NCBI RefSeq assembly: GCF_024502345.1
Contig: NZ_JALDNN010000001.1
Length of the DNA stretch: 64,000 bases
Origin: Escherichia coli
GTDB lineage: Bacteria; Pseudomonadota; Gammaproteobacteria; Enterobacterales; Enterobacteriaceae
Strand: one strand, 5' to 3'
The stretch's first letter is position 1. Every line of letters starts with the position of its first letter. Below the pieces are notes generated by a model. It was not told where the DNA came from. It saw only the letters and a list, made by a program, of their open reading frames with translations, and searched no databases. Of the stretch, positions 3,601-62,780 are shown piece by piece. The position numbers were made by a program, and so were the translations under genes.

Positions 3601-3898
3601 ACGTATAGCGGGGCGATTTTGTGCGTCCCGCAACATCCTTCCCCATCATTTTGTTACTCCGCTTACATAACCCAGATTGATAGTAAAAGTTTGCAACAAG
3701 GGCGAAAGTCAGTACAATCCCCGCCCGAATGTGTGTAAACGTGAACGCAATCGATTACGTAAATGATAGAACTGTGAAACGAAACATATTTTTGTGAGCA
3801 ATGATTTTTATAATAGGCTCCTCTGTATACGAAATATTTAGAAACGCAATTTGCGCCTTTTTCACTCCCGCAAGGGATTTTCAAACAGTGGCATACAT

Positions 3899-16727: not shown

Positions 16728-18023
16728 TTAATCGCTGTTTTTGGCAATTAAACGTTCCGGGATAACAAAACTGAAACGTGTTCCTTTTCCTACTGTACTC
16801 TCAATATTCAGGCGACTTTCGTGATGATTCACAGCATGTTTCACGATCGCTAACCCTAATCCGCTACCGCCGGTTTGCCGGGAACGCGCTTTATCAACGC
16901 GATAAAAACGCTCGGTCAGGCGCGGAATATGCTCCGCTGCAATGCCCGGTCCGTTATCTTCAACGCTAAATTCGGCACCGTGCGGCACTCGCTGCCAGCG
17001 TACGGTGATATGCGTGCCTTCCGGCGTATGATTCACGGCGTTATAGACCAGGTTCGAAATCGCACTGCGTAGCTGATCTTCGTTGCCAGACACCTTGAGG
17101 CCGCTATCTATCTCAAAGGTAAATGTCTGTTTTTTCTGACTCAGAGTCTGAGCCTCACGCTCAACAACGCGCAGCATCATCGGCACATCAACCTTTTCAT
17201 TGAGCAAATGCGTCGGTGCGGCTTCTATTTTCGACAGCGTCAGCAATTGCTTCACCAGCCCTTCCATCCGCTGGGTCTGCTCGCGCATGGTGTGCAACGC
17301 TTTTTCACGTACAGCCCCCTCCAGGGGTTGCTCATCCATCATCTCCAGGTAACCCTGTAACACGGTCAATGGCGTACGTAACTCATGGCTCACGTTGGCA
17401 AAAAAGTTACGCCGCGCCCCTTCCAGTTGATGCATTTGCGTGACATCACGCGCCACCATCAGCAACTGTTTGTGGGTATAAGGCATGACACGAATTTCCA
17501 GATGCCGCCCGGTGTTGAGCACCAGATTGAGCGGGCGAGAAAAATCACGCGTTTTCAGATATTGCGTAAACTCCGGGTAACGCAGCAGGTTAAGGATGTT
17601 CTGCCCATTATCTTCCGGCCAGCGCAAACCAAGAATCTGTTGCGCCAGACCGTTACACCAGAAAATACCGCCCTCTTCCGTGGTCAGCACCACTGCGTCG
17701 GGTAGCGACTCCGCGCCGCTACGAAAGCGTTTAATCAGATTGCCCAGTTCACGGCGGCGTTTTTTATTTCGCAGCTGCATCTGGTGTAAGCCGTATAGCA
17801 GCGGTTCCCAGCTACCACGCCCCGGTGGTGGGGTCATACTACGATCCACCCACAGCCACCATGAAAGGCGCAATAAATTCCAGAAATGCCAGATAAGCAG
17901 TCCCGTTACCGATGCCAGCAAAAACCAGGGTAGGTAACCAAAAAATGCACCCAGGATGAAAGCCGGGAGGCAGCAAAGTAGCAGCTCCAGCACCAGCCTT
18001 TTCCACGACAGCCGTTCCAGCAC
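16728..18023 (-). CDS. phoR: phosphate regulon sensor histidine kinase PhoR
   Basis: Track ORF 431 aa; N-terminal membrane segment, HisKA H-box ([14 protein letters not shown]) and HATPase_c motifs. Confidence 0.95.
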
Positions 18024-18080: not shown

Positions 18081-18770
18081 TTAAAAGCGGGTTGAAAAAC
18101 GATATCCTGTACCGCGCACGGTCTGCACCATGCGGTCATGCCCGCCGGGCTCCAGTGCTTTACGCAGGCGACGAATGTGGACATCGACCGTGCGGTCTTC
18201 CACATACACGTTAGTTCCCCAGACGTGGTTTAACAGCTGCTCGCGGCTGTACACGCGCTCAGGATGCGTCATAAAAAAGTGCAGCAGTTTAAATTCTGTC
18301 GGCCCCATCTCCAGCGGCTCTTCGCCCGCCATCACCCGGTGAGATGTCGGGTCGAGACTTAATCCCTGCATCTCAATCACCTCTTCCACCGCCATTGGCG
18401 AAATACGGCGCATTACCGCTTTGATTCGCGCCACCAGCTCCTTCGGCGAAAACGGCTTGGTGATATAGTCATCCGCGCCGGTTTCAAGGCCGCGCACGCG
18501 ATCTTCTTCTTCCCCTCTGGCGGTCAACATCACCACTGGAATATCCCGGGTCATCGACTCGCGCTTGAGGTGTTTGATGAACTGGATACCGGAGCCGCCA
18601 GGTAACATCCAGTCAAGGAGAATTAAATCCGGCCAGGGTTCATTCAGTTGATTCACAGCACTGTCATAATCTTCCGCTTCGACCGGCTGAAAGCCATTTT
18701 GTTCGAGCACGAAGCAGACCATTTCGCGAATTGGAGCTTCATCTTCTACGACCAGAATACGTCTCGCCAT
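18081..18770 (-). CDS. phoB: phosphate regulon response regulator PhoB
   Basis: Track ORF 229 aa, [29 protein letters not shown]...; OmpR-family winged helix at the C-terminus. Confidence 0.95.
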
Positions 18771-18820
18771 GATTTGCCCTGTTGTAATAAATAGGTTGCG
18801 ATCATTAATGCGACGTCATT

Positions 18821-18851
18821 ATGCGTCAGATTTATGACAGATTTATGAAAA
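18821..18851 (-). promoter_or_regulatory. Pho box in the phoB promoter
   Basis: Minus strand reads TTTTCATAAATCTGTCATAAATCTGACGCAT, direct 7-bp CTGTCAT-like repeats at 11-bp phasing, 50-80 bp upstream of the phoB ATG. Confidence 0.8.
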
Positions 18852-18959
18852 GCTCGTCGCACATATCTTCAGGTTATTGATTTCCGTGGCGCAGAAAAAA
18901 GCAAATGGCACATCTGTTTGGGTATAATCGCGCCCATGCTTTTTCGCCAGGGAACCGTT

Positions 18960-20162
18960 ATGCGCATCCTTCACACCTCAGACTGGCATCTCGGCCAGAA
19001 CTTCTACAGTAAAAGCCGCGAAGCTGAACATCAGGCTTTTCTTGACTGGCTGCTGGAGACAGCACAAACCCATCAGGTGGATGCGATTATTGTTGCCGGT
19101 GATGTTTTCGATACCGGCTCGCCGCCCAGTTACGCCCGCACGTTATACAACCGTTTTGTTGTCAATTTACAGCAAACTGGCTGTCATCTGGTGGTACTGG
19201 CAGGAAACCATGACTCGGTCGCCACGCTGAATGAATCGCGCGATATCATGGCGTTCCTCAATACGACCGTGGTCGCCAGCGCCGGACATGCGCCGCAAAT
19301 CTTGCCTCGTCGCGACGGGACGCCAGGCGCAGTGCTGTGCCCCATTCCGTTTTTACGTCCGCGTGACATTATTACCAGCCAGGCGGGGCTTAACGGTATT
19401 GAAAAACAGCAGCATTTACTGGCAGCGATTACCGATTATTACCAACAACACTATGCCGATGCCTGCAAACTGCGCGGCGATCAGCCTCTGCCCATCATCG
19501 CCACGGGACATTTAACGACCGTGGGGGCCAGTAAAAGTGACGCCGTGCGTGACATTTATATTGGCACGCTGGACGCGTTTCCGGCACAAAACTTTCCACC
19601 AGCCGACTACATCGCGCTCGGGCATATTCACCGCGCACAGATTATTGGCGGCATGGAACATGTTCGCTATTGCGGCTCCCCCATTCCACTGAGTTTTGAT
19701 GAATGCGGTAAGAGTAAATATGTCCATCTGGTGACATTTTCAAACGGCAAATTAGAGAGCGTGGAAAACCTGAACGTACCGGTAACGCAACCCATGGCGG
19801 TGCTGAAAGGCGATCTGGCGTCGATTACCGCACAGCTGGAACAGTGGCGCGATGTATCACAGGAGCCGCCTGTCTGGCTGGATATCGAAATCACTACTGA
19901 TGAGTATCTGCATGATATTCAGCGCAAAATCCAGGCATTAACCGAATCATTGCCTGTTGAAGTATTGCTGGTACGCCGGAGTCGCGAACAGCGCGAGCGT
20001 GTGTTAGCCAGCCAACAGCGTGAAACCCTCAGCGAACTCAGCGTCGAAGAGGTGTTCAATCGCCGTCTGGCACTGGAAGAACTGGAGGAATCGCAGCAGC
20101 AACGTCTGCAGCATCTTTTCGCCACGACGTTGCATAGCCTCGCCGGAGAACACGAAGCATGA
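18960..20162 (+). CDS. sbcD: DNA hairpin nuclease SbcD (Mre11 homologue)
   Basis: Track ORF 18918..20162; recognised N-terminus [31 protein letters not shown] gives 400 aa; calcineurin-like phosphoesterase motifs. Confidence 0.9.
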
Positions 20163-26776: not shown

Positions 26777-27232
26777 TTATTCGCTACGGCGGGCAATAAT
26801 TTTTAGCGCAGCAATATTATGCGTTTTACGCCGTAACTGATCGAATCGTCTCATCCCTATTCGCCTGTCAGCAGCACGCAGAATATTCACTAACCCCCAT
26901 TTATCGCTGGTAAATTGTTTTGTTAACAGCTCCGCTTTTGGGGTATCAATATATTCACGCAATAAATCAGAAATTGAACAAATATCCGTCAGGTAAGGAT
27001 ACCAGCAAGTTTCACCGTGAAAATTACGCACTCCACCGTTACCTGCAATAAAGTCTTTCGGGTAATCCCAGATCACGTTTTTATCCAACGTGATCCAATA
27101 ACGCGGTAAATCGGTGCTTCCACCATTTAGGCTGCGCATGGGGTAACGGGTACAGTGAATTTGCAGGTTGATCGTTGGCGTCAGTAAGTCATAGATCTCC
27201 CGCTGTAACTTGCTCCAGGGGCGTTGTGTCAT
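26777..27232 (-). CDS. hypothetical protein, 151 aa, downstream gene of a two-gene cassette at the K-12 ykiA position
   Basis: Track ORF MTQRPWSKLQREIYDLLTPTINLQIHCTRYPM...; ATG overlaps the upstream ORF stop (ATGA at 27229-27232); no family recognised from sequence. Confidence 0.6.
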   Translation of the reverse strand: MTQRPWSKLQREIYDLLTPTINLQIHCTRYPMRSLNGGSTDLPRYWITLDKNVIWDYPKDFIAGNGGVRNFHGETCWYPYLTDICSISDLLREYIDTPKAELLTKQFTSDKWGLVNILRAADRRIGMRRFDQLRRKTHNIAALKIIARRSE

Positions 27233-27510
27233 TGTTTTTCCTCAAGCCGGTGACGCGCTTCACTGCGAATTTTCCGCATTGCCCCGGTTTTCACTAAATC
27301 CCGTAACAGCGAAAGATCGGGTTGTTCGACAAATAAGAGTAATGATGGATCCTCTTTTAACCACGTCGTTTTCACATCGGCAGCGAGCTGTGGATTATTC
27401 ATAGCTAGCGACCGATGCCGAGACTCGGTCAATGTCGTTAACAACGACGCCGGGGTATGTGCGTTGCGTAATGCCGTTTGGCGCAAATGATCATTGCGAC
27501 TTTGCAGCAA
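27229..27510 (-). CDS. hypothetical protein, 93 aa, upstream gene of the two-gene cassette
   Basis: Track ORF MLQSRNDHLRQTALRNAHTPASLLTTLTESRH...; translationally coupled to the 151 aa ORF; AT-rich 5' region 27511-27675. Confidence 0.55.
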   Translation of the reverse strand: MLQSRNDHLRQTALRNAHTPASLLTTLTESRHRSLAMNNPQLAADVKTTWLKEDPSLLLFVEQPDLSLLRDLVKTGAMRKIRSEARHRLEEKQ

Positions 27511-32577: not shown

Positions 32578-32898
32578 TCAGGCGGCTTTCTTGAGGCAGG
32601 CGCTCATAAACTTATTACGATCATCACCTTTCAGTGATTGTTGCGTTGCTTGATTATTACATTCGCGCATCTTTTGCTGCTGTGGCGTCAAACTTTTTTC
32701 ACCAGGCGCAGACTTGCTGTTCTTCAGGCAATCACTCATGTAGGTCTTACGAGCATCCCCTTTCAACGCCTGTGCCGTCGCCTGCTGATTACAGGAGGTC
32801 ATACGCTGTTGTTGTGGGGTTAAGGTTCTCTCGGCAGCGCCGACGGTGGTTAAAAAAACCAGACCGAAAAGCAAGGTAACCAGTAATGTAATTTTCAT
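32578..32898 (-). CDS. psiF: phosphate starvation-inducible protein PsiF
   Basis: Track ORF 32578..32916; MKITLLVTLLFGLVFLTTVGAAE... signal peptide; tandem-duplicated LTPQQQ(R/K)M..CN.QAT motif; directly downstream of phoA. Confidence 0.9.
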   Translation of the reverse strand: MKITLLVTLLFGLVFLTTVGAAERTLTPQQQRMTSCNQQATAQALKGDARKTYMSDCLKNSKSAPGEKSLTPQQQKMRECNNQATQQSLKGDDRNKFMSACLKKAA

Positions 32899-32971
32899 AG
32901 CACCATCCCTCTTCATGTTTTAACCATGAGCGTATGCGCCCGTGATCTGCCATTAAGTCTGGTTGCTAACA

Positions 32972-33010
32972 GCAAAAAAACCACCCGGCAGCGAAAATTC
33001 ACTGCCGGGC
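32972..33010 (-). terminator. rho-independent terminator after phoA
   Basis: Minus-strand hairpin CCCGGCAGTGAATTTTCGCTGCCGGG followed by TGGTTTTTTTGCT. Confidence 0.7.
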
Positions 33011-33016
33011 GCGGTT

Positions 33017-34432
33017 TTATTTCAGCCCCAGAGCGGCTTTCATGGTGTAGAAGAGATCGGTCTGGTCGGTCAGTCCAACGACATTGGCGGCATGCGGGCC
33101 ATACGCCGCAATACGCAACTGACTGCCGGTATGTTCTTGTGAATCCTCTTCGGAGTTCCCGTAACTCATCACCATCACTGCGCCATCTTTGGTATTTAGC
33201 GCCTGGGTGAGGCCCGGAGCTTTGGTATCTGGCGCAACAATCTGGCTGGCGTGGGCGTGATCAGCGGTGACTATGACCAGCGTGTTACCATCCTTTTTGG
33301 CGAATTCCAGCGCCCGTTGTACGGCTTCATCGAGATCGACCGTCTCGCCAATTTGCCCACAAGGATTCGCAGCATGATCCTGTTTATCGATTGACGCACC
33401 TTCAACTTGCAGGAAAAAGCCTTTCTCATTTTTACTCAACAATTCAATGGCTTTGTCGGTCATCTGTGCCAGGGTCGGTACACTGTCATTACGTTGCGGA
33501 TTAGGCGTACAGGTGACTGCGGGCTTATCGATATTACCGTGGTACGTTGCTTTCGGTCCTAGCCAGCGCACTGGCATATTGCCGTCAGCAAACAGGCCAA
33601 GCAGGGGTTTTTGCTGATTCGCTTCCGTCACCGAATTCAGTGAGGCAGCATCGCTCACCAACTGATAACCACGCGCCTGTGCCTGTTCACGCAGCGTTTT
33701 TCCCTGCCATTCACCAGCGGTTGCCGTTTCAGCAAAGGTTTTTGCGCCGCCGCCAAGCGTAACGTCGGCACGAGCGTTAAGCAGCTGTTCGGTAATCGAT
33801 CCTTTTCCGCCTTTTTCCAGAGCGTTACCCGGACATTTTTCACTGGTCGCGCTCGGACCGTAGCATTTGCGCGAGGTCACATGCGCCACCAGCGCGGCGG
33901 GCGTGGCATCCTGCAACTCTGCGGTAGAAACGTTACCGGTCGCCAGACCTGCGGCTTTTGCCATTTCCAGAATCGTTGGGTGATCTTTTTCGTGAATATC
34001 GACGCCCAGCGCGCCGTTATAGGTTTTGACACCGGTTGACCAGGCGGTTGCTGATGCAGCCGAGTCGGTGACGTAGTCCGGTTTGCCGGTTTTTTTATTC
34101 AGCGCATAGTGAGTGTATTGCCCGGTAAGCGGTAAGGCATCGATACCTTTAAAAAAGCCGCCCGCACCTTCGGCATAATTACGTGCGGCAGTAATTTCCG
34201 AATCCCCCATCCCATCGCCAATCAGCAAAATAATATTTTTTGCTGGTTTATCGCTAAGAGAATCACGCAGAGCGGCGGTCTGATCAGCCGTTAAGCGGCG
34301 AGCACCGCCGGGTGCAGTAATATCGCCCTGAGCAGCCCGGTTTTCCAGAACAGGCATTTCTGATGTCCGGGCTTTTGTCACAGGGGTAAACAGTAACGGT
34401 AAGAGTGCCAGTGCAATAGTGCTTTGTTTCAC
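33017..34432 (-). CDS. phoA: alkaline phosphatase
   Basis: Track ORF 33017..34501; recognised precursor N-terminus (V)[20 protein letters not shown] from a GTG at 34432 gives 471 aa; active-site region DSAASATAW. Confidence 0.95.
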
Positions 34433-34493
34433 TTTATTTTCTCCATGTACAAATACATCAAAAAATAAAAACAAAGCGACTATAAGTCTCGGC

Positions 34494-34512
34494 CATGACA
34501 ACTTTATGACAG
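34494..34512 (-). promoter_or_regulatory. Pho box of the phoA promoter
   Basis: Minus strand reads CTGTCATAAAGTTGTCA, the classical PhoB-binding direct repeat, about 65 bp upstream of the phoA start. Confidence 0.8.
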
Positions 34513-34532: not shown

Positions 34533-34793
34533 TTACTGACGAGGATGCTTCAATAACTTCTTTACGTAATCGCGCAGCAGCTCCGTATCGTCGTCAGGAA
34601 TGCTGGCATCGGGCTTTACCTCGTACAGCGCCCCCTCTACCTGATCAATCAACCGTTGTTGGTCATTTTGCGCCATATTGCGAAGCATTGCAGTGACGAT
34701 AATCTCCAAAGCTTCTACCTGCGCATACAGTTCTTTCGACTCTTCTTCTTTTTGGGCAAGCTTAAATAACAACTCAGCAATGAGATTTTTCAT
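34533..34793 (-). CDS. iraP: anti-adaptor protein IraP
   Basis: Track ORF 86 aa, [33 protein letters not shown]... Confidence 0.9.
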
Positions 34794-41739: not shown

Positions 41740-44743
<3,004 letters not shown>

Positions 44744-45268
44744 TTGTCATCCCTCCTCAGGGACATAATAAGTTGATCCATCAATTATCAATGCATAGAA
44801 AACATATTATGTTTCGCGTTGACGATTATGCGGCGTTATAGAGGAATGGTTCAATTATTCTTTCCCCTAAGTCCGATTGCGGACATATATAAAGCACGTG
44901 AACACACACACAGAAATAAATAACAAAAACACAATATTTCAATACGTTAATGAAAGCGTTAATTTTAAAACATAGACCATGAAAATATAAAACAACTAAA
45001 ACAGACAAATAATGTATCAATAAGCAATGAACTTTAAGTTATTCACTTTTTGAAAACGTCACCAAATCCCCAAAAACAATAATCTATGGCTATAAATAAA
45101 AATTAAAAATATTTTCAGTGAATATGAAATTATTGCTATTTCTATTACAAAGATGTCCTGGTCTCTCTTTCATTCTCTTCTTGTCAACATCACGACAACT
45201 TTCGTAAAACACTCCTGCCCCGCTTCAGGTATACTGTGCACCTTAATTCCACAAACATCAGGCAGACC

Positions 45269-49764: not shown

Positions 49765-50066
49765 GATTGTCTGCTCCCCTGTCTTGTTATGGGAGCAGTA
49801 TTTCGTTGCGGGTCAGTTTGATAAAGGAATTAAAAGGTCTTGTTAAGAACAAAGCGTTTTTAGAAAAAAATCGGCAATGGTTAGCGAGTTTGCGCATTTT
49901 GCGGTTTTGGCGAACGTATCCCGCCGGTTCACAAGCCAGATAAGATGTGCGCGCTCCGGCAAATTATTGCCATTTTGTTACATCCATTCCATATCTGTCG
50001 CTGGTTGATTGCCAGCGCCGCGCCGTGATGCATGATAGGAGAATTAGATAATAAGAGAAGAAAAGT

Positions 50067-50696
50067 ATGATTCGGGTAGTGCTGGTGGATGACCATGTGG
50101 TGGTGCGCTCTGGCTTCGCACAATTACTCTCTCTGGAAGACGATCTGGAGGTCATTGGTCAGTACAGTAGTGCCGCGCAGGCATGGTCGGCATTAATCCG
50201 TGATGACGTCAATGTTGCCGTCATTGATATTGCCATGCCGGACGAAAACGGCCTCAGTTTGCTTAAGCGCCTGCGTGCACAAAAACCGCAATTTCGCGCC
50301 ATTATTCTTAGCATTTATGACGCGCCAACCTTTGTGCAAAGCGCGCTGGATGCCGGTGCCAGCGGGTATTTAACCAAACGCTGTGGGCCGGAAGAGTTAG
50401 TACAGGCGGTGCGCTCGGTCGGGCTGGGCGGGCATTATCTCTGTGCCGATGCGATTCGGGCTTTACGCGGCGGCGGGCAACCCGCCCAGGCGCTGGAAAT
50501 TCTCACCCCACGAGAACGTGAAGTGTTTGATTTACTGGTCAAAGGAGACAGCGTTAAAGAGATCGCCTTTAAACTCGAACTCAGTCATAAAACGGTACAT
50601 GTGCATCGCGCCAATGTGCTGGGAAAACTGAACTGCCATAGCACCATTGAACTGGTACATTTTGCGCTCGACCACCATCTGCTGGCGGGGCATTAA
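50067..50696 (+). CDS. UhpA-like response regulator (NarL/FixJ family, LuxR-type HTH)
   Basis: Track ORF 209 aa, MIRVVLVDDHVVVRSGFAQLL...; receiver domain with DD..D and C-terminal HTH (KEIAFKLELSHKTVHVHRANVLGKL); aligns along its length with recalled UhpA. Confidence 0.85.
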   Translation: MIRVVLVDDHVVVRSGFAQLLSLEDDLEVIGQYSSAAQAWSALIRDDVNVAVIDIAMPDENGLSLLKRLRAQKPQFRAIILSIYDAPTFVQSALDAGASGYLTKRCGPEELVQAVRSVGLGGHYLCADAIRALRGGGQPAQALEILTPREREVFDLLVKGDSVKEIAFKLELSHKTVHVHRANVLGKLNCHSTIELVHFALDHHLLAGH

Positions 50697-52237
50697 TGTC
50701 GCGCAATCTTCGTCATTGGGTGATTTCGCTGTTTATTGTGCTGGCCTGGGGAACCGGCTGGCTGATGCTGTGGACGCTCAGCTTTTATCTGACCAATAAC
50801 GGTCAACAGGCGGTGTTGTTTCTCCCGCAGGGAGTTTATCTCGCCCTTGTTATTTTGCTCTCTCGCCGCTACTGGCCTGCGTTGGTGCTCCCCCCTTTGC
50901 TGATGATGTTCTGGCTCCATAGTGAACAGCTATTGAACGGTTATCTCATGCTGGCAACGCCGGTTATTAGCCTGTTTCCTGTCCTCCTTGCGCAAAACTT
51001 CTGGCACCGTTTTCCACTTTACTGGCAGCGTCTGACGTTGCTGTTAGCCACTGTCACGGCAGCTTCATTGTTGAATACCGCCCTGCTCTCCCCTTTTATG
51101 TCAGGCCCAATAATGCTGCCGGGTTTGACCTCATTTACCGGCGGCGTATTACTGACGCCGTTTGTCTATCTTATCTTTGAGTTTCTGCGCCAGCAGCATC
51201 GCTACCAGCTCCTGGGACTCGATACGCATAATCCCCCCTTGCGTACCTCTTTAATCATCTGGTGTAGCCTGTTTTTTATTATTGGTATCGGCACTCAGAT
51301 GGTGCTGTCACCTGAAATTGAACGTCTGCTGTTGATCGTGGTCTTTTTGCCCAATGTGGTGATGGCGTGGAAATTTGGCTGGCAAGGTGGCGTACTCTCC
51401 GGGCTTTTGGGCAGCATGATGATCACCATCGCCCGCCAGATTGGCGTGGGCTTTAGTAACCTGGTGGAGCTGGAGATTTTCCTCGCGACCCAGGCCTTGC
51501 TGGGAATTGGCCTGGGCATTGCCATCAGTCGCCAGCAACATCTGGCGCTAAACCTGCACCATTACCGACAACGGCTGGAGGCCGAGCTGGCAGCGCGGCG
51601 GGCATTGGCGGAAAAGCTGATCCACACCGAGGAGGACACGCGAAAAAACCTGGCGCGAGAGCTGCACGACGAAATCGGTCAGAACATCACCGCCATTCAG
51701 ATCCAGTCGCAACTGGTGAAGCGGGCGCGTGATCCGGCGCAAATTCAATCCGCAGCCAGCCAAATCAATGAGCTCGCCCGCCGCATTCATCTCTCCACCC
51801 GCCAATTGCTGCGCCAGTTGCGGCCTCCCGCGCTTGATGAACTGACATTTCGCGAAGCGTTGCTGCATCTGATTAATGAATTTGCCTTTAGTGAACGCGG
51901 CATTCATTGCCAGTTTGCCTATCAACTGAACTCCACACCAGAAAACGAAACGGTGCGCTTTACCTTGTATCGGTTATTGCAGGAGTTGCTCAATAACATC
52001 TGTAAACACGCCGAAGCCAGCGAAGTGACGATTATCCTGCGCCAGCAGGGAGAGGTATTGCATCTGGAAGTCAGCGACAACGGTGTGGGGATCGCCAGCG
52101 GGAAAATGGCCGGATTTGGCATTCAGGGGATGCGTGAGCGCGTCAGCGCCCTGGGCGGCGACTTAACGCTCGAAAAACAGCACGGCACGCGGGTAATTGT
52201 TAACTTGCCCACATTTTTGCAACAAATCGCCGGATAA
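50696..52237 (+). CDS. UhpB-like sensor histidine kinase (MASE1-type membrane domain, HisKA_3, HATPase)
   Basis: Track ORF 513 aa; multiple N-terminal TM helices, H-box ELHDEIGQNITAI, ATP-binding region; start overlaps the stop of the upstream regulator. Confidence 0.85.
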   Translation: MSRNLRHWVISLFIVLAWGTGWLMLWTLSFYLTNNGQQAVLFLPQGVYLALVILLSRRYWPALVLPPLLMMFWLHSEQLLNGYLMLATPVISLFPVLLAQNFWHRFPLYWQRLTLLLATVTAASLLNTALLSPFMSGPIMLPGLTSFTGGVLLTPFVYLIFEFLRQQHRYQLLGLDTHNPPLRTSLIIWCSLFFIIGIGTQMVLSPEIERLLLIVVFLPNVVMAWKFGWQGGVLSGLLGSMMITIARQIGVGFSNLVELEIFLATQALLGIGLGIAISRQQHLALNLHHYRQRLEAELAARRALAEKLIHTEEDTRKNLARELHDEIGQNITAIQIQSQLVKRARDPAQIQSAASQINELARRIHLSTRQLLRQLRPPALDELTFREALLHLINEFAFSERGIHCQFAYQLNSTPENETVRFTLYRLLQELLNNICKHAEASEVTIILRQQGEVLHLEVSDNGVGIASGKMAGFGIQGMRERVSALGGDLTLEKQHGTRVIVNLPTFLQQIAG

Positions 52238-52309
52238 CCAGGAAAAAGTCTTAGGTATCCCGGATTTTCTCTCATCCCCTTTCACTTTCATTTTCATATA
52301 GTCAGCAAC

Positions 52310-53626
52310 ATGGAGACAACCATGCACGCGCGTTCAGCGAGAGAAATTAATCAATGCTACCGGACATTACGTCCGCGATTGCTGATGTGCATGATTATTG
52401 GCTACGCCGCATTTTATCTGACGCGAAAAAGCGTGAATTACGTCCTTCCGGCGCTACAAACCGACCTCGGACTGGATAAAGGCGACATTGGCCTGCTGGG
52501 TTCGCTGTTTTATCTCAGCTACGGATTGTCGAAATTTACCGCCGGACTGTGGCATGACAGCCATGGACAACGCGGTTTTATGGGCGTCGGCTTGTTCGCC
52601 ACCGGGTTATTGAACGTGGTGTTTGCCTTTGGCGAATCACTTACGCTTCTGCTTGTGGTCTGGACACTGAACGGTTTTTTTCAGGGCTGGGGATGGCCAC
52701 CGTGTGCCCGCTTGCTGACCCACTGGTACTCACGCAATGAGCGCGGTTTCTGGTGGGGCTGCTGGAATATGTCGATCAACATTGGCGGAGCGATTATTCC
52801 GCTGATTAGCGCCTTTGCCGCCCACTGGTGGGGCTGGCAGGCCGCGATGCTGACACCGGGGATAATCAGCATGGCATTAGGGATCTGGTTAACGCTACAA
52901 CTCAAAGGCACGCCCCAGGAAGAGGGATTACCGACAGTTGGTCACTGGCGTCACGATCCGCTGGAGTTACGTCAGGAACAACAAAGTCCGCCGATGGGGC
53001 TGTGGCAAATGTTGCGCACCACCATGCTGCAAAATCCGCTGATCTGGCTACTGGGCGTCTCTTATGTACTGGTTTATGTGATCCGGATTGCGCTTAACGA
53101 CTGGGGCAATATCTGGCTGACGGAAAGCCACGGTGTCAACCTGCTCAGCGCCAACGCCACGGTAATGCTGTTTGAAGTGGGCGGCTTACTCGGCGCGTTA
53201 TTTGCCGGATGGGGATCGGATTTGCTGTTTAGCGGGCAACGAGCGCCAATGATTTTGCTGTTCACGTTGGGGTTGATGGTGTCAGTCGCCGCACTGTGGC
53301 TGGCACCGGTTCATCACTACGCTCTGCTGGCAGTGTGCTTTTTTACCGTGGGCTTTTTCGTCTTTGGCCCACAAATGCTGATTGGACTTGCGGCGGTGGA
53401 GTGTGGGCACAAAGCTGCGGCGGGTTCAATCACCGGATTTCTCGGCCTGTTCGCTTACCTTGGCGCGGCGCTGGCAGGCTGGCCGCTGTCGCTGGTCATC
53501 GAACGCTACGGCTGGCCGGGAATGTTCAGTTTACTCTCGGTCGCCGCAGTACTTATGGGTTTACTGCTGATGCCGTTACTGATGGCGGGCATCACCACCA
53601 CTCACGCTCGAAGGATAAAACAATGA
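52310..53626 (+). CDS. UhpC-like MFS membrane protein (putative sugar-phosphate sensor)
   Basis: Track ORF 438 aa; organophosphate:Pi antiporter-type MFS motifs (YLTRKS, FFQGWGWPPCARLLTHWYS), similar in length and sequence to recalled UhpC. Confidence 0.8.
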   Translation: METTMHARSAREINQCYRTLRPRLLMCMIIGYAAFYLTRKSVNYVLPALQTDLGLDKGDIGLLGSLFYLSYGLSKFTAGLWHDSHGQRGFMGVGLFATGLLNVVFAFGESLTLLLVVWTLNGFFQGWGWPPCARLLTHWYSRNERGFWWGCWNMSINIGGAIIPLISAFAAHWWGWQAAMLTPGIISMALGIWLTLQLKGTPQEEGLPTVGHWRHDPLELRQEQQSPPMGLWQMLRTTMLQNPLIWLLGVSYVLVYVIRIALNDWGNIWLTESHGVNLLSANATVMLFEVGGLLGALFAGWGSDLLFSGQRAPMILLFTLGLMVSVAALWLAPVHHYALLAVCFFTVGFFVFGPQMLIGLAAVECGHKAAAGSITGFLGLFAYLGAALAGWPLSLVIERYGWPGMFSLLSVAAVLMGLLLMPLLMAGITTTHARRIKQ

Positions 53627-54654
53627 AAATGACCTTTACCTCTACTCTGATTGCTTCTGCCGTTGCGCTGGCGACTTTAACGGGTGCCGCGCAGGCAAAA
53701 GGCCGGCTGGTGGTCTATTGCAGCGCCACCAATGAAATGTGTGAGGCCGAAACCAAAGCGTTTGGCGAGAAATATGATGTAAAAACCTCGTTTATCCGCA
53801 ACGGTTCCGGAAGCACCCTGGCAAAAGTCGATGCTGAAAAGAAAAACCCCCAGGCTGACGTCTGGTACGGCGGCACTTTAGACCCGCAATCGCAGGCTGG
53901 CGAGATGGGCCTGCTACAGGCGTATAAATCCCCTAACCTTGAGCAGATCATGGAGAAATTCCGCGATCCGGCAAAAGTGAAAGGGAATCTGTCCTCTGCC
54001 GTTTATGTGGGGATCCTCGGTTTTGGCGTAAACACCGATCGTCTGAAAGAGAAAAACCTGCCGGTGCCGAAGTGCTGGAAAGATCTCACCAAACCGGAAT
54101 ATAAAGGCGAAATTCAAATTGCCGATCCGCAAAGTTCCGGTACTGCCTACACCGCCCTGGCTACTTTTGCGCAGCTGTGGGGGGAAGATCAGGCCTTTGA
54201 TTATCTAAAACAACTGAACGCCAACGTCTCTCAGTACACCAAATCAGGCATAGCCCCGGCACGTAACGCCGCCCGTGGCGAAACGGCGATTGGTATTGGC
54301 TTCCTGCATGACTACTCGCTGGAAAAAGAACAGGGCGCGCCGCTGGAGTTGATTTCCCCGTGTGAAGGTACGGGCTACGAAATTGGCGGCGTCAGCATTC
54401 TGAAAGGCGCGCGCAACCTCGACAACGCCAAACTGTTTGTGGACTGGGTATTATCAAAAGAAGCTCAGGAACTGGCGTGGAAGAAAGGGAAGTCTTATCA
54501 GATCCTGACCAATACCACCGCCGAAACGTCGCCAAATTCGCTGAAGCTCGACGACCTGAAATTAATCAACTACGACATGGATAAATATGGTTCCACGGAT
54601 GTTCGTAAGGCATTGATTAATAAATGGGTCAGCGAAGTGAAGATGGGTAAATAA
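53623..54654 (+). CDS. afuA: AfuA/FbpA-type periplasmic substrate-binding protein of an ABC importer
   Basis: In-frame ATG at 53623 within track ORF 53296..54654 gives 343 aa with signal peptide MKMTFTSTLIASAVALATLTGAAQA; ATG overlaps the stop of the UhpC-like gene (ATGA). Confidence 0.8.
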   Translation: MKMTFTSTLIASAVALATLTGAAQAKGRLVVYCSATNEMCEAETKAFGEKYDVKTSFIRNGSGSTLAKVDAEKKNPQADVWYGGTLDPQSQAGEMGLLQAYKSPNLEQIMEKFRDPAKVKGNLSSAVYVGILGFGVNTDRLKEKNLPVPKCWKDLTKPEYKGEIQIADPQSSGTAYTALATFAQLWGEDQAFDYLKQLNANVSQYTKSGIAPARNAARGETAIGIGFLHDYSLEKEQGAPLELISPCEGTGYEIGGVSILKGARNLDNAKLFVDWVLSKEAQELAWKKGKSYQILTNTTAETSPNSLKLDDLKLINYDMDKYGSTDVRKALINKWVSEVKMGK

Positions 54655-54722
54655 ACCCGCATTAGGCGTATTTGCCGGGTGCAGCACAAACGCCTGCCCC
54701 GGCCAACCATACCGGAACTACT

Positions 54723-56801
54723 ATGTCACAGACACTTGCACTCCATCCCGTGAAAAAGCGGGATGCGATTTTCCTTTGGGTTTTACTGGGCTGGCTGGCA
54801 TTTATACTGTTGCCGAGCTGGAGCCTCGATTATGGCCTGCTGGAGTCCACGAGTGATGAGATCCTCGAGGCTTATGGCTGGTCGCATTTTAATATCAGCT
54901 GGCTGTGGTATTTACTCCCGAGCCTGTTGCTGGTTCGCCCGTTTCGTGAGGCCACGCGCGAACAGCGTAGTCGTCATTATTTTGATGCCAGCTGGGCATT
55001 GCTCTGTATGGCGTTTATCGTCATCAGCGCCACCGTGGCTGGACGCGGTTTAGGCTACGCCGCCATCGTGCTGTTTGTTGAACTAGGCGCGATTATGACG
55101 CTGGCCTTAACCCGCCTCGAATGGCTGGGCGGCGACCGCTTCGTGATCGGCTCACTGATTGCGATTGTGGCGCTGATTGGCATTTTTATCGTCTGGCCGA
55201 GCATCGCCATTTTTATCCCGATGTTCACCAACGACGCGGGAGAGTTCGCCCCGCTGGCGTTTATGACCGTGCTCTCGCAGGCACATATTGTTCAGGTGAT
55301 CGTCAACTCTATCGTCTTGTCGATAGCGGTGGGGATAGGCTGTACTTTCTTCGGCCTGGTGCTGGCGATTTATACCACGCGCATCGCTAAACGCAGCGCC
55401 ATTATTGGTCGCATCTTTTCCATTTTGCCCATCGTTACGCCACCGTTTGTGGTCGGCTTAGGCGTGACGCTCATGATGGGGCGCTCCGGCTATGTTACGG
55501 AATTTATGGTGGAGTGGTTTGGGCTGACCAACACCAACTGGCTGTACGGTTTTACCGGGATCTGGCTGGCACAGGTTCTGGCATTCACGCCAATGGCATT
55601 TATGATCCTCGACGGGGCCATTAAAACCATTCATCCCTCGCTGGAAGAGGCCTCCTACACCCTGCGCGCCAGCCGCTGGCAAACCTTTAACGGCGTGTTT
55701 GTGCCGTTGTTGAAGCCCGCACTCGCCAATGCCTTTTTAATCGTCGTGGTACAGTCACTGGCTGATTTCAGTAACCCGCTGGTACTTGGCGGTAACTTCG
55801 ACGTACTGGCGACGCAAATTTACTTCTATATTACCGGCTCGCAGCTGGATTATCAGGCCGCCAGCACGCTTGGCGCTTTCCTGCTGCTGTTCTCGCTGCT
55901 GGTGTTCTGCATCCAGTATATGTGGATTGGTAAACGCTCTTACGTCACGGTTTCCGGCAAATCCTACCGTGGCGACGTCCAGCCGCTACCGGTCACCCTG
56001 GTGTGGAGCGTGGTCGCCATACTTGCGATATGGATTGCCTTTAACGCCCTGCTCTACGGCAGCATTTTCTACGGCAGCTTCACGGTGAACTGGGGCGTGG
56101 ACTACACCCTGACGCTGGATAACTTTATCAAGCTATTTGGTCAGGGAATGAGCGACGGCGCGTGGCCTTCACTGCTGGATACCCTGCTCTACGCCGGGAT
56201 TGCCGCTCCCATTACCGCTATCTTTGGCCTGCTCATCGCCTGGGTGGTGGTGCGTCAACAATTCAAAGGCAAAAAGACCATCGAGTTCACCACCATGCTG
56301 TGCTTTGCCGTACCGGGTACGGTGGCGGGCGTTTCGTATATTCTTGCCTTTAACAGCGCTCCGGTTTATCTCACCGGAACGGCGGCAATTGTGATTATCT
56401 CGATGGTGATGCGTAACGTTCCGGTGGGTATTCGCGCCGGGATTGCGGGTCTGGGGCAGATCGACAAATCGCTGGATGAAGCCTCACTCAGCCTGCGCGC
56501 GGGTTCCTTGCGAACCATAACCCACATTTTACTGCCGCTGCTGCGTCCGGCCATTCTCTCGGCCCTGATCTACAGCTTTGTGCGGGCCATCACGACGGTC
56601 AGCGCCATCGTCTTTCTCGTCACGCCGGACACCCGCGTGGCAACCGCCTACATTCTTAACCGCGTTGAAGACGGCGAATATGGCGTAGCCATCGCCTATG
56701 GTTCGATTCTGATCGTGGTGATGCTGGCGATTATTTTCCTCTTTGACTGGCTGATCGGAGAAGCTCGTATCTCCCGTTCTAAAGCCAAAAACAAGGCGTA
56801 A
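54723..56801 (+). CDS. afuB: AfuB/FbpB-type ABC permease with two fused transmembrane domains
   Basis: Track ORF 54672..56801 starts at a TTG; first ATG at 54723 (MSQTLALHP...) gives about 692 aa; duplicated ABC permease modules; the alternative start at 54672 cannot be excluded. Confidence 0.8.
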
Positions 56802-57859
56802 TGGAGCGCACTATGAGTCAGAAAAATTTTGTTGAACTGCGCAACGTCACTAAACGATTCGGCAGTAATACGGTTATCGACAATATCAATCTCACCATTC
56901 CACAAGGGCAAATGGTGACGCTGCTCGGTCCTTCCGGCTGTGGCAAAACCACCATTTTGCGTCTGGTTGCCGGGCTGGAAAAACCGAGCGAAGGGCAAAT
57001 TTTTATTGATGGCGAAGATGTCACGCATCGTTCCATTCAACAGCGCGATATCTGCATGGTGTTTCAGTCATACGCTCTGTTCCCGCATATGTCGCTGGGT
57101 GAAAACGTTGGCTACGGGCTGAAGATGCTTGGCGTCTCGCGTAGCGAAGTGAAACAGCGGGTGAAGGAGGCGCTGGCAATGGTGGATCTGGAAGGCTTCG
57201 AGGACCGCTATGTCGATCAGATTTCCGGTGGTCAGCAACAGCGTGTGGCACTGGCCCGCGCGTTGATCCTCAAGCCAAAGGTGCTGCTGTTTGATGAGCC
57301 GTTAAGTAACCTCGATGCCAACCTGCGCCGCAGTATGCGCGATAAGATCCGCGAGCTGCAAAAGCAGTTTAATATCACGTCGCTCTACGTCACTCACGAT
57401 CAAAGTGAAGCTTTCGCGGTGTCCGACACTGTGCTGGTGATGAATAAAGGTCACATCATGCAGATTGGCTCACCGCAGGATCTCTATCGTCAGCCAGCCT
57501 CCCGATTTATGGCAAGTTTTATGGGCGACGCCAACCTGTTCCCGGCGAACTTTAGCGAAGAGTATGTCGATATCTACGGTTATCGCCTGCCGCGCGCGGC
57601 GCATTTCCCGGCGCAAGGTAGCGGCACCGTCGGCGTTCGCCCGGAAGCCATCACCTTAAGCAATCACGGCGAAGAGAGTCAGCGTTGTGTTATTCGCCAT
57701 GTCGCCTACATGGGGCCGCAGTACGAAGTGACCGTAGAGTGGCATGGACAGGAGATTTTATTACAAGTAAACGCCACCCGTTTACAGCCCGATATTGGTG
57801 AGCACTATTACCTCGAAATCCATCCTTACGGGATGTTTGTTTTAGCGGATACGGCATAA
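56801..57859 (+). CDS. afuC: AfuC/FbpC-type ABC transporter ATP-binding protein
   Basis: Track ORF 352 aa; Walker [10 protein letters not shown], signature [14 protein letters not shown], Walker [11 protein letters not shown]-terminal TOBE-like regulatory domain; ATG overlaps the afuB stop (TAATG); a start at 56813 with a GGAG RBS is also possible. Confidence 0.85.
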
Positions 57860-57873
57860 AAATAGCACATAAA

Positions 57874-57900
57874 CGGTCCCCATCTGTCTTGAGGGACCGT
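57874..57900 (+). terminator. possible terminator hairpin after afuC
   Basis: GGTCCC-N12-GGGACC stem-loop 15 bp after the afuC stop; no strong T-tract. Confidence 0.4.
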
Positions 57901-57943
57901 TCACCTGGTTAGGCTTCGGACAACAATTATTCTCCAGTGTTAT

Positions 57944-62432: not shown

Positions 62433-62780
62433 ATGTAGGCCGGATAAGGCGTTCACGCCGCATCCGGCAGTCGTGTGCAGATGCCTGATGCGACGCTTGC
62501 GCGTCTTATCAGGCCTACAAATTCCCGCGCCATCCGTAGGCCGGACAAGACGTTTGCGCCGCATCTGGCAGTCGTGCGCAGATGCCTGATGCGACGCTAA
62601 CGCGTCTTATCAGGCCTACAAATTCCCGCGCCATCCGTAGGCCGGATAAGGCGTTCACGCCGCATCCGGCAGTCGTGCGCAGATGCCTGATGCGACGCTA
62701 ACGCGTCTTATCAGGCCTACAAATTCTCGCGCCATCCGTAGGCCGGATAAGGCGTTCACGCCGCATCCGGCAGTCGTGCT
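62433..62780. repeat. BIME: array of about seven alternating REP units (about 3.5 tandem doublets of roughly 100 bp)
   Basis: Repeated GTAGGCCGGATAAGGCGTTCACGCCGCATCCGGCAGTCGTG and GATGCCTGATGCGACGCT(A/T)(A/G)CGCGTCTTATCAGGCCTAC units with near-identical copies between mhpT and mhpE. Confidence 0.85.

What the first reader, a model, noticed from the sequence alone, without database searches (positions are those of the whole stretch)
18821..18851. Pho regulon landmarks (phoB Pho box; phoA Pho box at 34494-34512) are intact
Both canonical PhoB-binding direct repeats are present with correct spacing relative to phoB and phoA, and psiF follows phoA. This is an ordinary, well-described arrangement, recorded to anchor the annotation rather than as a novelty.
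Basis: established knowledge. Interest (0 to 1): 0.15.

Follow-up and report, generated by a model that had tools for sequence, protein, structure and literature searches.

The report
Standard E. coli phoB and phoA Pho boxes
The two sequences are the well-known binding sites through which the phosphate-starvation regulator PhoB switches on phoB-phoR and phoA-psiF in E. coli; they are present and correctly placed, so the finding is ordinary, and the only wrinkle is a rare, apparently harmless two-base variant in the phoA promoter.

Summary
Confirmed and ordinary. The window is E. coli chromosome, collinear in reverse with K-12 MG1655 435,911-373,701. Both motifs lie on the minus strand.

- **phoB Pho box:** TTTTCATAAATCTGTCAT at 18834-18851, with a third repeat reaching 18823. 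It ends 10 nt upstream of the -10 CATAAT. The whole sbcD-phoB intergenic region is identical to K-12.
- **phoA Pho box:** CTGTCATAAAGTTGTCAT at 34495-34512. It ends 10 nt upstream of the -10 TATAGT.
- **Against chance:** a weight matrix built from 56 other ChIP-seq PhoB sites ranks these two sites first and second of about 128,000 window positions (21.3 and 20.2 bits; simulated maximum 14.9 ± 1.7).
- **Genes:** phoB, phoR, phoA and psiF are full length. PhoB and PsiF proteins are identical to K-12.
- **One nuance:** the iraP-phoA spacer has two substitutions relative to K-12. C→T at 34495 is the last Pho box base and stays within the published consensus. A→G at 34459 is in the leader. Each is very rare among 5,426 complete E. 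coli genomes. They occur together in four independent public contigs, so they form a real haplotype, predicted to be neutral.

Nothing here is new.

The parts
18834..18851 (-). phoB promoter Pho box, core 18-mer TTTTCATAAATCTGTCAT (two 11-bp PhoB half-site units)
   Evidence: Sequence read. Identical to K-12. Highest-scoring PhoB matrix hit in the window at 21.26 bits (register 18833-18850). Same sequence as K-12 ChIP-seq peak 417093.
18823..18833 (-). AAAT spacer plus a third, degenerate repeat CTGACGC. Together with the preceding CTGTCAT unit this forms an overlapping weaker second site (TGTCATAAATCTGACGCA, 18822-18839).
   Evidence: match at 18823-18840. One search gives 13.21 bits, below the simulated maximum. 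PMC10294691 notes that the phoB upstream region has been reported to hold two PhoB sites.
18818..18823 (-). phoB promoter -10 hexamer CATAAT, 10 nt downstream of the 18-bp Pho box. No -35-like hexamer.
   Evidence: Sequence. The sigma-70 two-hexamer scan finds no site in 18700-19000, as expected when the Pho box replaces the -35. The -10 assignment rests on established knowledge of the K-12 promoter.
18081..18770 (-). phoB, response regulator, 229 aa
   Evidence: ORF. Two synonymous differences from K-12 and an identical protein. Annotated as phoB in matching genomes.
16728..18023 (-). phoR, sensor kinase, 431 aa, GTG start
   Evidence: ORF. Full length, with N230D, N307S and P363A relative to K-12. 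The phoB-phoR spacer is identical to K-12.
18651..18668 (+). Intragenic PhoB site inside the phoB coding sequence, ATTCACAGCACTGTCATA, oriented opposite to phoB
   Evidence: Exact match to the site under K-12 ChIP-seq peak 417245. Third-highest matrix score in the window, 16.22 bits.
34495..34512 (-). phoA promoter Pho box CTGTCATAAAGTTGTCAT. The last base (34495) is T where K-12 has C.
   Evidence: Matrix score 20.18 bits, against 19.70 for the K-12 allele. K-12 ChIP-seq peak 401676. The consensus allows C or T at this position.
34479..34484 (-). phoA promoter -10 hexamer TATAGT, 10 nt downstream of the Pho box
   Evidence: Sequence. No sigma-70 two-hexamer site on the minus strand here. The assignment rests on established knowledge of the K-12 phoA promoter.
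34459..34459 (-). Leader substitution A->G relative to K-12, 27 nt upstream of the phoA GTG and upstream of the GGAG ribosome-binding site
   Evidence: At most 1 of 5,418 matching records is >=99% identical over the 76-nt query, and none of the 12 listed full-length hits is exact. Present in L003, L004, L006 and L007. No change in the predicted leader fold.
33017..34432 (-). phoA, alkaline phosphatase, 471 aa, GTG start
   Evidence: Same length as K-12, with P24S, G49A and E381D. Pfam Alk_phosphatase on identical public proteins.
32982..33011 (-). Terminator-like hairpin with a 13-bp stem followed by a T-run, between phoA and psiF
   Evidence: The spacer is identical to K-12.
32578..32898 (-). 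psiF, phosphate-starvation-inducible protein, 106 aa
   Evidence: the mechanical ORF starts at an upstream ATG; the K-12 start is used here. Protein identical to K-12. Pfam PsiF_repeat on the public orthologue.

Best explanation
These are the native PhoB-dependent promoters of the phoBR and phoA-psiF operons of an E. coli chromosome.

Mechanism, from established knowledge of the K-12 system: when phosphate is scarce, PhoR phosphorylates PhoB. A PhoB dimer binds head-to-tail to the two 11-bp units of each Pho box. The box occupies the place of a -35 hexamer, 10 bp upstream of the -10, and PhoB recruits sigma-70 RNA polymerase from there. At phoB this gives positive autoregulation of phoB-phoR. 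At phoA it induces alkaline phosphatase, and psiF is expressed at a lower level, probably by read-through of the hairpin after phoA.

Shown here: the sequences, their positions and spacing, their identity or near-identity to the K-12 sites that are bound in vivo, and the integrity of all four genes.

Inferred: that binding and induction actually occur in this strain, and that the two phoA-promoter substitutions (box C->T, leader A->G) are functionally neutral.
For: - Gene order and orientation match K-12 435,911->373,701 in reverse.
- The sbcD-phoB, phoB-phoR and phoA-psiF spacers are identical to K-12. The iraP-phoA spacer has 2 substitutions in 100 nt and no indel.
- Consensus scan: 3 hits against 0.12 expected, all at these two promoters.
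- A matrix built from 56 independent ChIP-seq sites ranks the phoB box first, the phoA box second and the intragenic phoB site third.
- K-12 ChIP-seq peaks lie at exactly these three sites. K-12 RNA-seq wild type versus delta-phoB gives log2 fold changes of 7.6 for phoA, 6.8 for phoR and 5.4 for psiF (PMC10294691).
- Both boxes have the 10-nt gap to the -10, and no -35-like hexamer is found.
- PhoB protein is identical to K-12 and PhoR is full length.
- The T allele lies inside the published consensus CTGT(C/A)A(C/T) (PMC3465305). T is the commoner base at that position among ChIP-seq sites (30 T, 23 C).
- The exact T-form 18-mer sits 20-105 nt upstream of phosphate-related genes (phoA, a PhoB-type regulator, ppk, a pstS-like gene, a PHO4-family transporter, phoX) in other Proteobacteria.
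Against: Nothing in the data contradicts it. Caveats:
- No binding or expression data exist for this strain.
- The T+G phoA promoter haplotype is absent from all 5,426 complete E. coli genomes searched, so its effect has presumably never been measured.
- A matrix score difference of 0.5 bit is not a measurement of affinity.
- PhoR carries three substitutions of untested effect.
Confidence: 0.96

Rival explanations
1. The phoA promoter of this lineage is a cis-regulatory variant. The C->T change brings the second half-site to the consensus CTGTCAT-type ending, and together with the leader A->G it measurably changes PhoB affinity, induction threshold or translation of phoA relative to K-12.
For: - Both substitutions fall in the only 100-nt regulatory spacer of phoA, and one lies inside the Pho box.
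- Each is very rare among complete genomes: 2 to 4 of 5,396 matching records for T, and at most 1 for G.
- They travel together in 4 independent contigs.
- The matrix score rises slightly, from 19.70 to 20.18 bits.
Against: - C and T are about equally used at this position in bound sites (23 against 30 of 56), and the classical consensus lists both.
- The predicted leader fold and its energy are unchanged at -18.7 kcal/mol.
- Two changes in 100 nt (2%) is close to the divergence of the neighbouring phoA coding sequence (18 of 1416, 1.3%), so drift is a sufficient explanation.
- The G is upstream of the ribosome-binding site and creates no new start codon.
Confidence: 0.1
2. The motifs are chance matches to a short AT-rich consensus and have no regulatory meaning.
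For: The window holds 13 positions scoring 12 bits or more, against 4.25 expected. Weak Pho-box-like matches are therefore common. One example at 32882-32899 (+) overlaps the psiF start and scores below the simulated maximum.
Against: - The two sites score 21.3 and 20.2 bits, against a simulated maximum of 14.9 +/- 1.7.
- The consensus scan gives 0.12 expected against 3 found.
- They are orthologous, base for base, to in vivo bound and functionally required K-12 sites.
Confidence: 0.01

Closest known systems
E. coli K-12 phoB (phoBR) promoter Pho box, ChIP-seq peak 417093 in PMC10294691
   Same: The whole 189-nt sbcD-phoB intergenic region is identical, including the three repeats, the 10-nt gap, the -10 and the distance to the ATG.
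   Different: Nothing in the regulatory region differs. phoB has 2 synonymous changes, and PhoR has N230D, N307S and P363A.
E. coli K-12 phoA promoter Pho box CTGTCATAAAGTTGTCAC, ChIP-seq peak 401676 (also given in PMC8601176 and PMC3465305)
   Same: 17 of 18 box bases, the 10-nt gap, the -10 TATAGT, the leader length, the GTG start and the downstream hairpin and psiF are the same.
   Different: The last box base is T instead of C (window 34495), and the leader has G instead of A (window 34459). The combination is in no complete E. coli genome of the 5,426 searched but is in 4 public draft or metagenomic contigs.
Intragenic PhoB site within phoB, ChIP-seq peak 417245 in PMC10294691
   Same: The 18-mer ATTCACAGCACTGTCATA is identical, at the same place in the gene.
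   Different: None. The paper argues that intragenic PhoB sites in general are transcriptionally inert (abstract).
Pho boxes of other Proteobacteria carrying the exact same 18-mer
   Same: CTGTCATAAAGTTGTCA(C/T) lies 1-105 nt upstream of alkaline phosphatase (Proteus columbae, T form), PhoB-type regulators (Kushneria spp., T and C forms), PstS-like, Ppk, PHO4-family, PhoX and 5'-nucleotidase genes.
   Different: These are different genes and species, and none of the sites is tested. The remaining hits to the same 18-mer are coincidences, most of them inside a conserved coding sequence whose translation reads like ClpP (that identification is from my own knowledge, not a tool result).

Membership tests
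PhoB-activated Pho-box promoter (E. coli Pho regulon) | Two tandem 11-bp units, each a 7-bp CTGTCAT-like element plus a 4-bp spacer that is A/T-rich in the consensus (consensus CTGTCAT-A(A/T)A(T/A)-CTGT(C/A)A(C/T)) | tested here: met
   phoB has TTTTCAT AAAT CTGTCAT and phoA has CTGTCAT AAAG TTGTCAT. Each has 2 mismatches to the 18-mer consensus, against 0.12 matches expected by chance. Independent matrix ranks 1 and 2. Consensus taken from PMC3465305.
PhoB-activated Pho-box promoter (E. coli Pho regulon) | The box replaces the -35 hexamer and ends 10 bp upstream of the -10 hexamer | tested here: met
   Exactly 10 nt lie between the box and CATAAT (phoB) and between the box and TATAGT (phoA). 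The sigma-70 two-hexamer scan finds no site on the gene strand at either promoter. The -10 assignments come from knowledge of K-12.
PhoB-activated Pho-box promoter (E. coli Pho regulon) | Orthology to sites shown to bind PhoB in vivo and to drive PhoB-dependent transcription | tested here: met
   Base-for-base alignment to K-12. K-12 ChIP-seq peaks and RNA-seq from PMC10294691.
PhoB-activated Pho-box promoter (E. coli Pho regulon) | The cognate PhoB/PhoR two-component system is present and uninterrupted | tested here: met
   PhoB (229 aa) is identical to K-12. PhoR (431 aa) is full length with 3 substitutions.
PhoB-activated Pho-box promoter (E. coli Pho regulon) | PhoB~P binding and phosphate-limitation-dependent induction in this strain | not testable with these tools
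   Needs EMSA or footprinting and reporter or alkaline phosphatase assays.
phoA-psiF operon | psiF lies directly downstream of phoA on the same strand, with a conserved spacer | tested here: met
   phoA is 33017-34432 (-) and psiF is 32578-32898 (-). The 118-nt spacer is identical to K-12. Public contigs show the same order.
phoA-psiF operon | Co-regulation of psiF with phoA by PhoB | not testable with these tools
   In K-12, psiF has a log2 fold change of 5.4 and phoA 7.6, wild type versus delta-phoB. A strong hairpin lies between the genes, so read-through is inferred and was not shown here.

The most novel reading that the evidence does not exclude
The T (Pho box) plus G (leader) haplotype of the phoA promoter marks a distinct E. 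coli lineage and is a natural cis-regulatory allele that shifts PhoB affinity or the phosphate threshold of alkaline phosphatase induction. The haplotype is absent from 5,426 complete genomes but recurs in public draft and metagenomic assemblies.
Probability: 0.08. Interest if true: 0.2.

Novelty: already known. Interest (0 to 1): 0.05.

Why it matters
It matters only as an annotation anchor. It fixes the identity, orientation and integrity of the phoBR and phoA-psiF loci in this window, and it shows the strain has a complete phosphate-starvation switch. The rare two-base phoA promoter haplotype could serve as a lineage marker. phoA is widely used as a reporter and PCR target, so anyone designing primers or promoter constructs from K-12 should know the allele exists. 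No open biological question is touched.

Tried and rejected
1. **Polarising the C/T allele with other Escherichia species.** Most of the hits are coincidences, the majority of them inside a conserved coding sequence (Acinetobacter and various Firmicutes) whose translation I recognise as ClpP; that name is from my own knowledge, not from a tool.

2. **Sequencing error or artefact as the source of the two phoA promoter differences.** Rejected. The same two bases occur in four independent public contigs that are 99.8-99.94% identical to the window.

3. **An effect of the leader substitution on mRNA structure.** The predicted fold and energy are identical for both alleles.

4. **Additional Pho boxes elsewhere in the window.** Candidates were 3762-3779, 49965-49982 (upstream of tauA) and 32882-32899 (at the psiF start). 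All score 13-14 bits, below the mean maximum of simulated sequence (14.9), and none corresponds to a K-12 ChIP-seq peak. I treat them as noise.

5. **A Shigella origin as the reason for the 99.2% best identity.** Not supported. The only non-K-12 stretches seen in the K-12 comparison are a known accessory island (found in other E. coli genomes) and allelic variants, not insertion sequences. The source lineage remains unnamed.

Full report
**Observation.** I read both sites directly. Both are on the minus strand.

At the first site, 18851->18821 reads TTTTCATAAAT CTGTCATAAAT CTGACGCAT. These are three 7-bp repeats with an 11-bp period. The classical 18-bp Pho box is 18834-18851. Ten nucleotides further on is CATAAT (18818-18823), and the phoB ATG is at 18770.

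At the second site, 34512->34495 reads CTGTCATAAAG TTGTCAT. Ten nucleotides further on is TATAGT (34479-34484), and the phoA GTG is at 34432.

The ORF lists give brnQ, phoR (16728-18023), phoB (18081-18770), the divergent sbcD-sbcC, then dgcC, psiF (32578-32898), phoA (33017-34432), iraP and the divergent ddlA. So psiF does follow phoA.

**More than chance.** The consensus CTGTCATAWAWCTGTCAY with up to 3 mismatches finds three matches in 64 kb, all at these two promoters, against 0.12 expected from shuffles.

For a test independent of the local sequences, I took the 59 site sequences under PhoB ChIP-seq peaks in K-12 (Fitzgerald et al. 2023, PMC10294691, Table 1). I removed the three that lie in this interval, built a log-odds matrix and scanned both strands.
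- The phoB box scores 21.26 bits and ranks first.
- The phoA box scores 20.18 bits and ranks second.
- A site inside the phoB coding sequence (18651-18668, + strand, ATTCACAGCACTGTCATA) scores 16.22 bits and ranks third.
- The maximum in 100 simulated 64-kb sequences averaged 14.87 +/- 1.65 bits.

The third site is an exact copy of the sequence under K-12 ChIP-seq peak 417245.

**Comparison with K-12 and other E. coli.** The window is collinear with MG1655 435,911->373,701, in reverse.
- The 301 bases around the phoB promoter are identical to K-12 and to many other genomes; 5,266 of 5,424 matching records are at least 99% identical.
- The sbcD-phoB, phoB-phoR and phoA-psiF spacers have no differences from K-12.
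- The 100-nt iraP-phoA spacer has exactly two substitutions and no indel. One is C->T at window 34495, the last base of the Pho box. The other is A->G at window 34459, in the leader, 27 nt upstream of the GTG.

No complete genome among 5,426 is identical over the 301 bases around the phoA promoter; the best is 99.3%. A 76-nt query holding only the box variant is matched exactly and in full by two horse isolates, and 4 records are at least 99% identical. A 76-nt query holding only the leader variant has at most one record at least 99% identical, and none of the 12 listed full-length hits is exact.

The variants are not errors. The window's exact PhoA protein is encoded on many public contigs. 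Four of the five contigs I read (L003, L004, L006, L007) carry both substitutions. Those four are 99.8-99.94% identical to the window over 5-7.4 kb.

Over 24 kb the closest complete genome is only 99.2% identical. The window therefore comes from an E. coli lineage poorly represented among finished genomes.

**Is the phoA box still a proper Pho box?** Yes.
- The published consensus is CTGTCAT-A(A/T)A(T/A)-CTGT(C/A)A(C/T) (PMC3465305). A degenerate PHO box used to build functional synthetic promoters also ends in Y (PMC8601176).
- Among the 56 independent ChIP-seq sites, that position is T in 30 and C in 23. The window allele scores 20.18 bits and the K-12 allele 19.70.
- The exact 18-mer, in both forms, occurs in other Proteobacteria 1-105 nt upstream of genes I confirmed by Pfam. 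These are alkaline phosphatase in Proteus columbae (T form), OmpR/PhoB-type regulators in Kushneria (T form; a sister species has C at the same place) and in a metagenome-assembled genome (C form), a PstS-like binding protein, polyphosphate kinase, a PHO4-family transporter, PhoX and a 5'-nucleotidase.
- The leader substitution lies upstream of the GGAG ribosome-binding site, creates no start codon and leaves the predicted leader fold unchanged.

**Genes.** All four genes have the K-12 length, start and stop codons, and no internal stops.
- PhoB: identical protein.
- PsiF: identical protein.
- PhoR: N230D, N307S, P363A.
- PhoA: P24S, G49A, E381D.

**Mechanism.** From established knowledge of the K-12 system, summarised in PMC10294691 and PMC8601176: under phosphate limitation PhoR phosphorylates PhoB. 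A PhoB dimer binds the two direct-repeat units, which sit where a -35 hexamer would be, and recruits sigma-70 RNA polymerase.

Consistent with this, the simple sigma-70 scan finds no -35/-10 pair on the gene strand at either promoter, and both boxes keep the 10-nt gap to the -10.

In K-12, deleting phoB lowers phoA by 7.6 log2 units, phoR by 6.8 and psiF by 5.4, and psiF reads are about ten-fold fewer than phoA reads. A strong hairpin followed by a T-run lies between phoA and psiF (32982-33011, minus strand). Partial read-through is therefore the likely route to psiF expression. That step is inference.

Binding and induction in this particular strain are also inferred, not shown.

**Verdict.** This is the textbook arrangement and is already known. 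The only item beyond the textbook is a rare two-base phoA promoter haplotype that everything available predicts to be neutral. Interest is low.

Noticed in passing
window 18651-18668 (+), inside phoB: Exact copy of the intragenic PhoB binding site mapped by ChIP-seq in K-12 (peak 417245, ATTCACAGCACTGTCATA). It has the third-best PhoB matrix score in the window. The source paper regards intragenic PhoB sites as transcriptionally inert.
   Followed up: yes
window 34459 and 34495 (iraP-phoA spacer): A two-substitution phoA promoter haplotype (box C->T, leader A->G). It is absent from 5,426 complete E. coli genomes but present in four independent public draft or metagenomic contigs that are 99.8-99.94% identical to the window.
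   Followed up: yes
window 14000-38000 (checked); probably the whole window: Over these 24 kb the closest complete E. coli genome is only 99.2% identical, with top hits from baboon, otter, fresh water, pig and deer isolates. The source lineage is poorly represented among finished genomes and I could not name it.
   Followed up: partly
window ~49800-57930: An 8.1-kb accessory island replaces the K-12 yaiS-yaiP-yaiX(IS2)-yaiO segment. It encodes a LuxR-type response regulator, a MASE1 histidine kinase, a UhpC-like MFS protein and an ABC transporter (binding protein, permease, ATPase annotated fbpC). From memory this resembles the AfuABC sugar-phosphate uptake island. It is present in full in 518 of 5,426 genomes, with top matches 99.8-99.9% identical.
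   Followed up: partly
window ~41760-44745 (-), yaiT: The autotransporter gene yaiT lacks the IS3 insertion that interrupts it in K-12. It is still split into two reading frames (445 and 566 codons), and its central ~1.5 kb is too divergent to align with K-12. It is probably a pseudogene or a divergent allele.
   Followed up: partly
window ~26780-27233 (-): An uninterrupted ORF of about 150 codons lies at the position of ykiA, which is annotated as a pseudogene in K-12. The window has about 360 bp here that did not align to K-12. Several close genomes carry a further 1.9-kb insertion (a DUF2773 protein) in the 14-38 kb interval, probably here, that the window lacks.
   Followed up: no
window 62435-62779: A tandem array of 3.4 copies of a 101-bp unit (94% matches) made of REP-like palindromic sequence. 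It lies in the mhpE-mhpT intergenic region and also resembles a repeat between mak and araJ in K-12 (83-87% identity).
   Followed up: no
window 32982-33011 (-): A strong terminator-like hairpin (13-bp stem followed by a T-run) lies between phoA and psiF, although the two genes are treated as one PhoB-dependent operon. In K-12 RNA-seq psiF is about ten-fold lower than phoA, which fits partial termination.
   Followed up: partly
loci L013, L016-L018, L022, L023 and others (Acinetobacter and Firmicutes): The phoA Pho box 18-mer CTGTCATAAAGTTGTCAC also occurs as the reverse complement of a conserved coding stretch (…RDTDRDNFMTAQ…), which I recognise from my own knowledge as ClpP. It is a reminder that exact Pho-box matches can be coding coincidences.
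   Followed up: partly
window 34533-34793 (-), iraP: IraP carries C23Y relative to K-12. In K-12 RNA-seq iraP is only weakly PhoB-dependent (log2 fold change 1.2).
   Followed up: no
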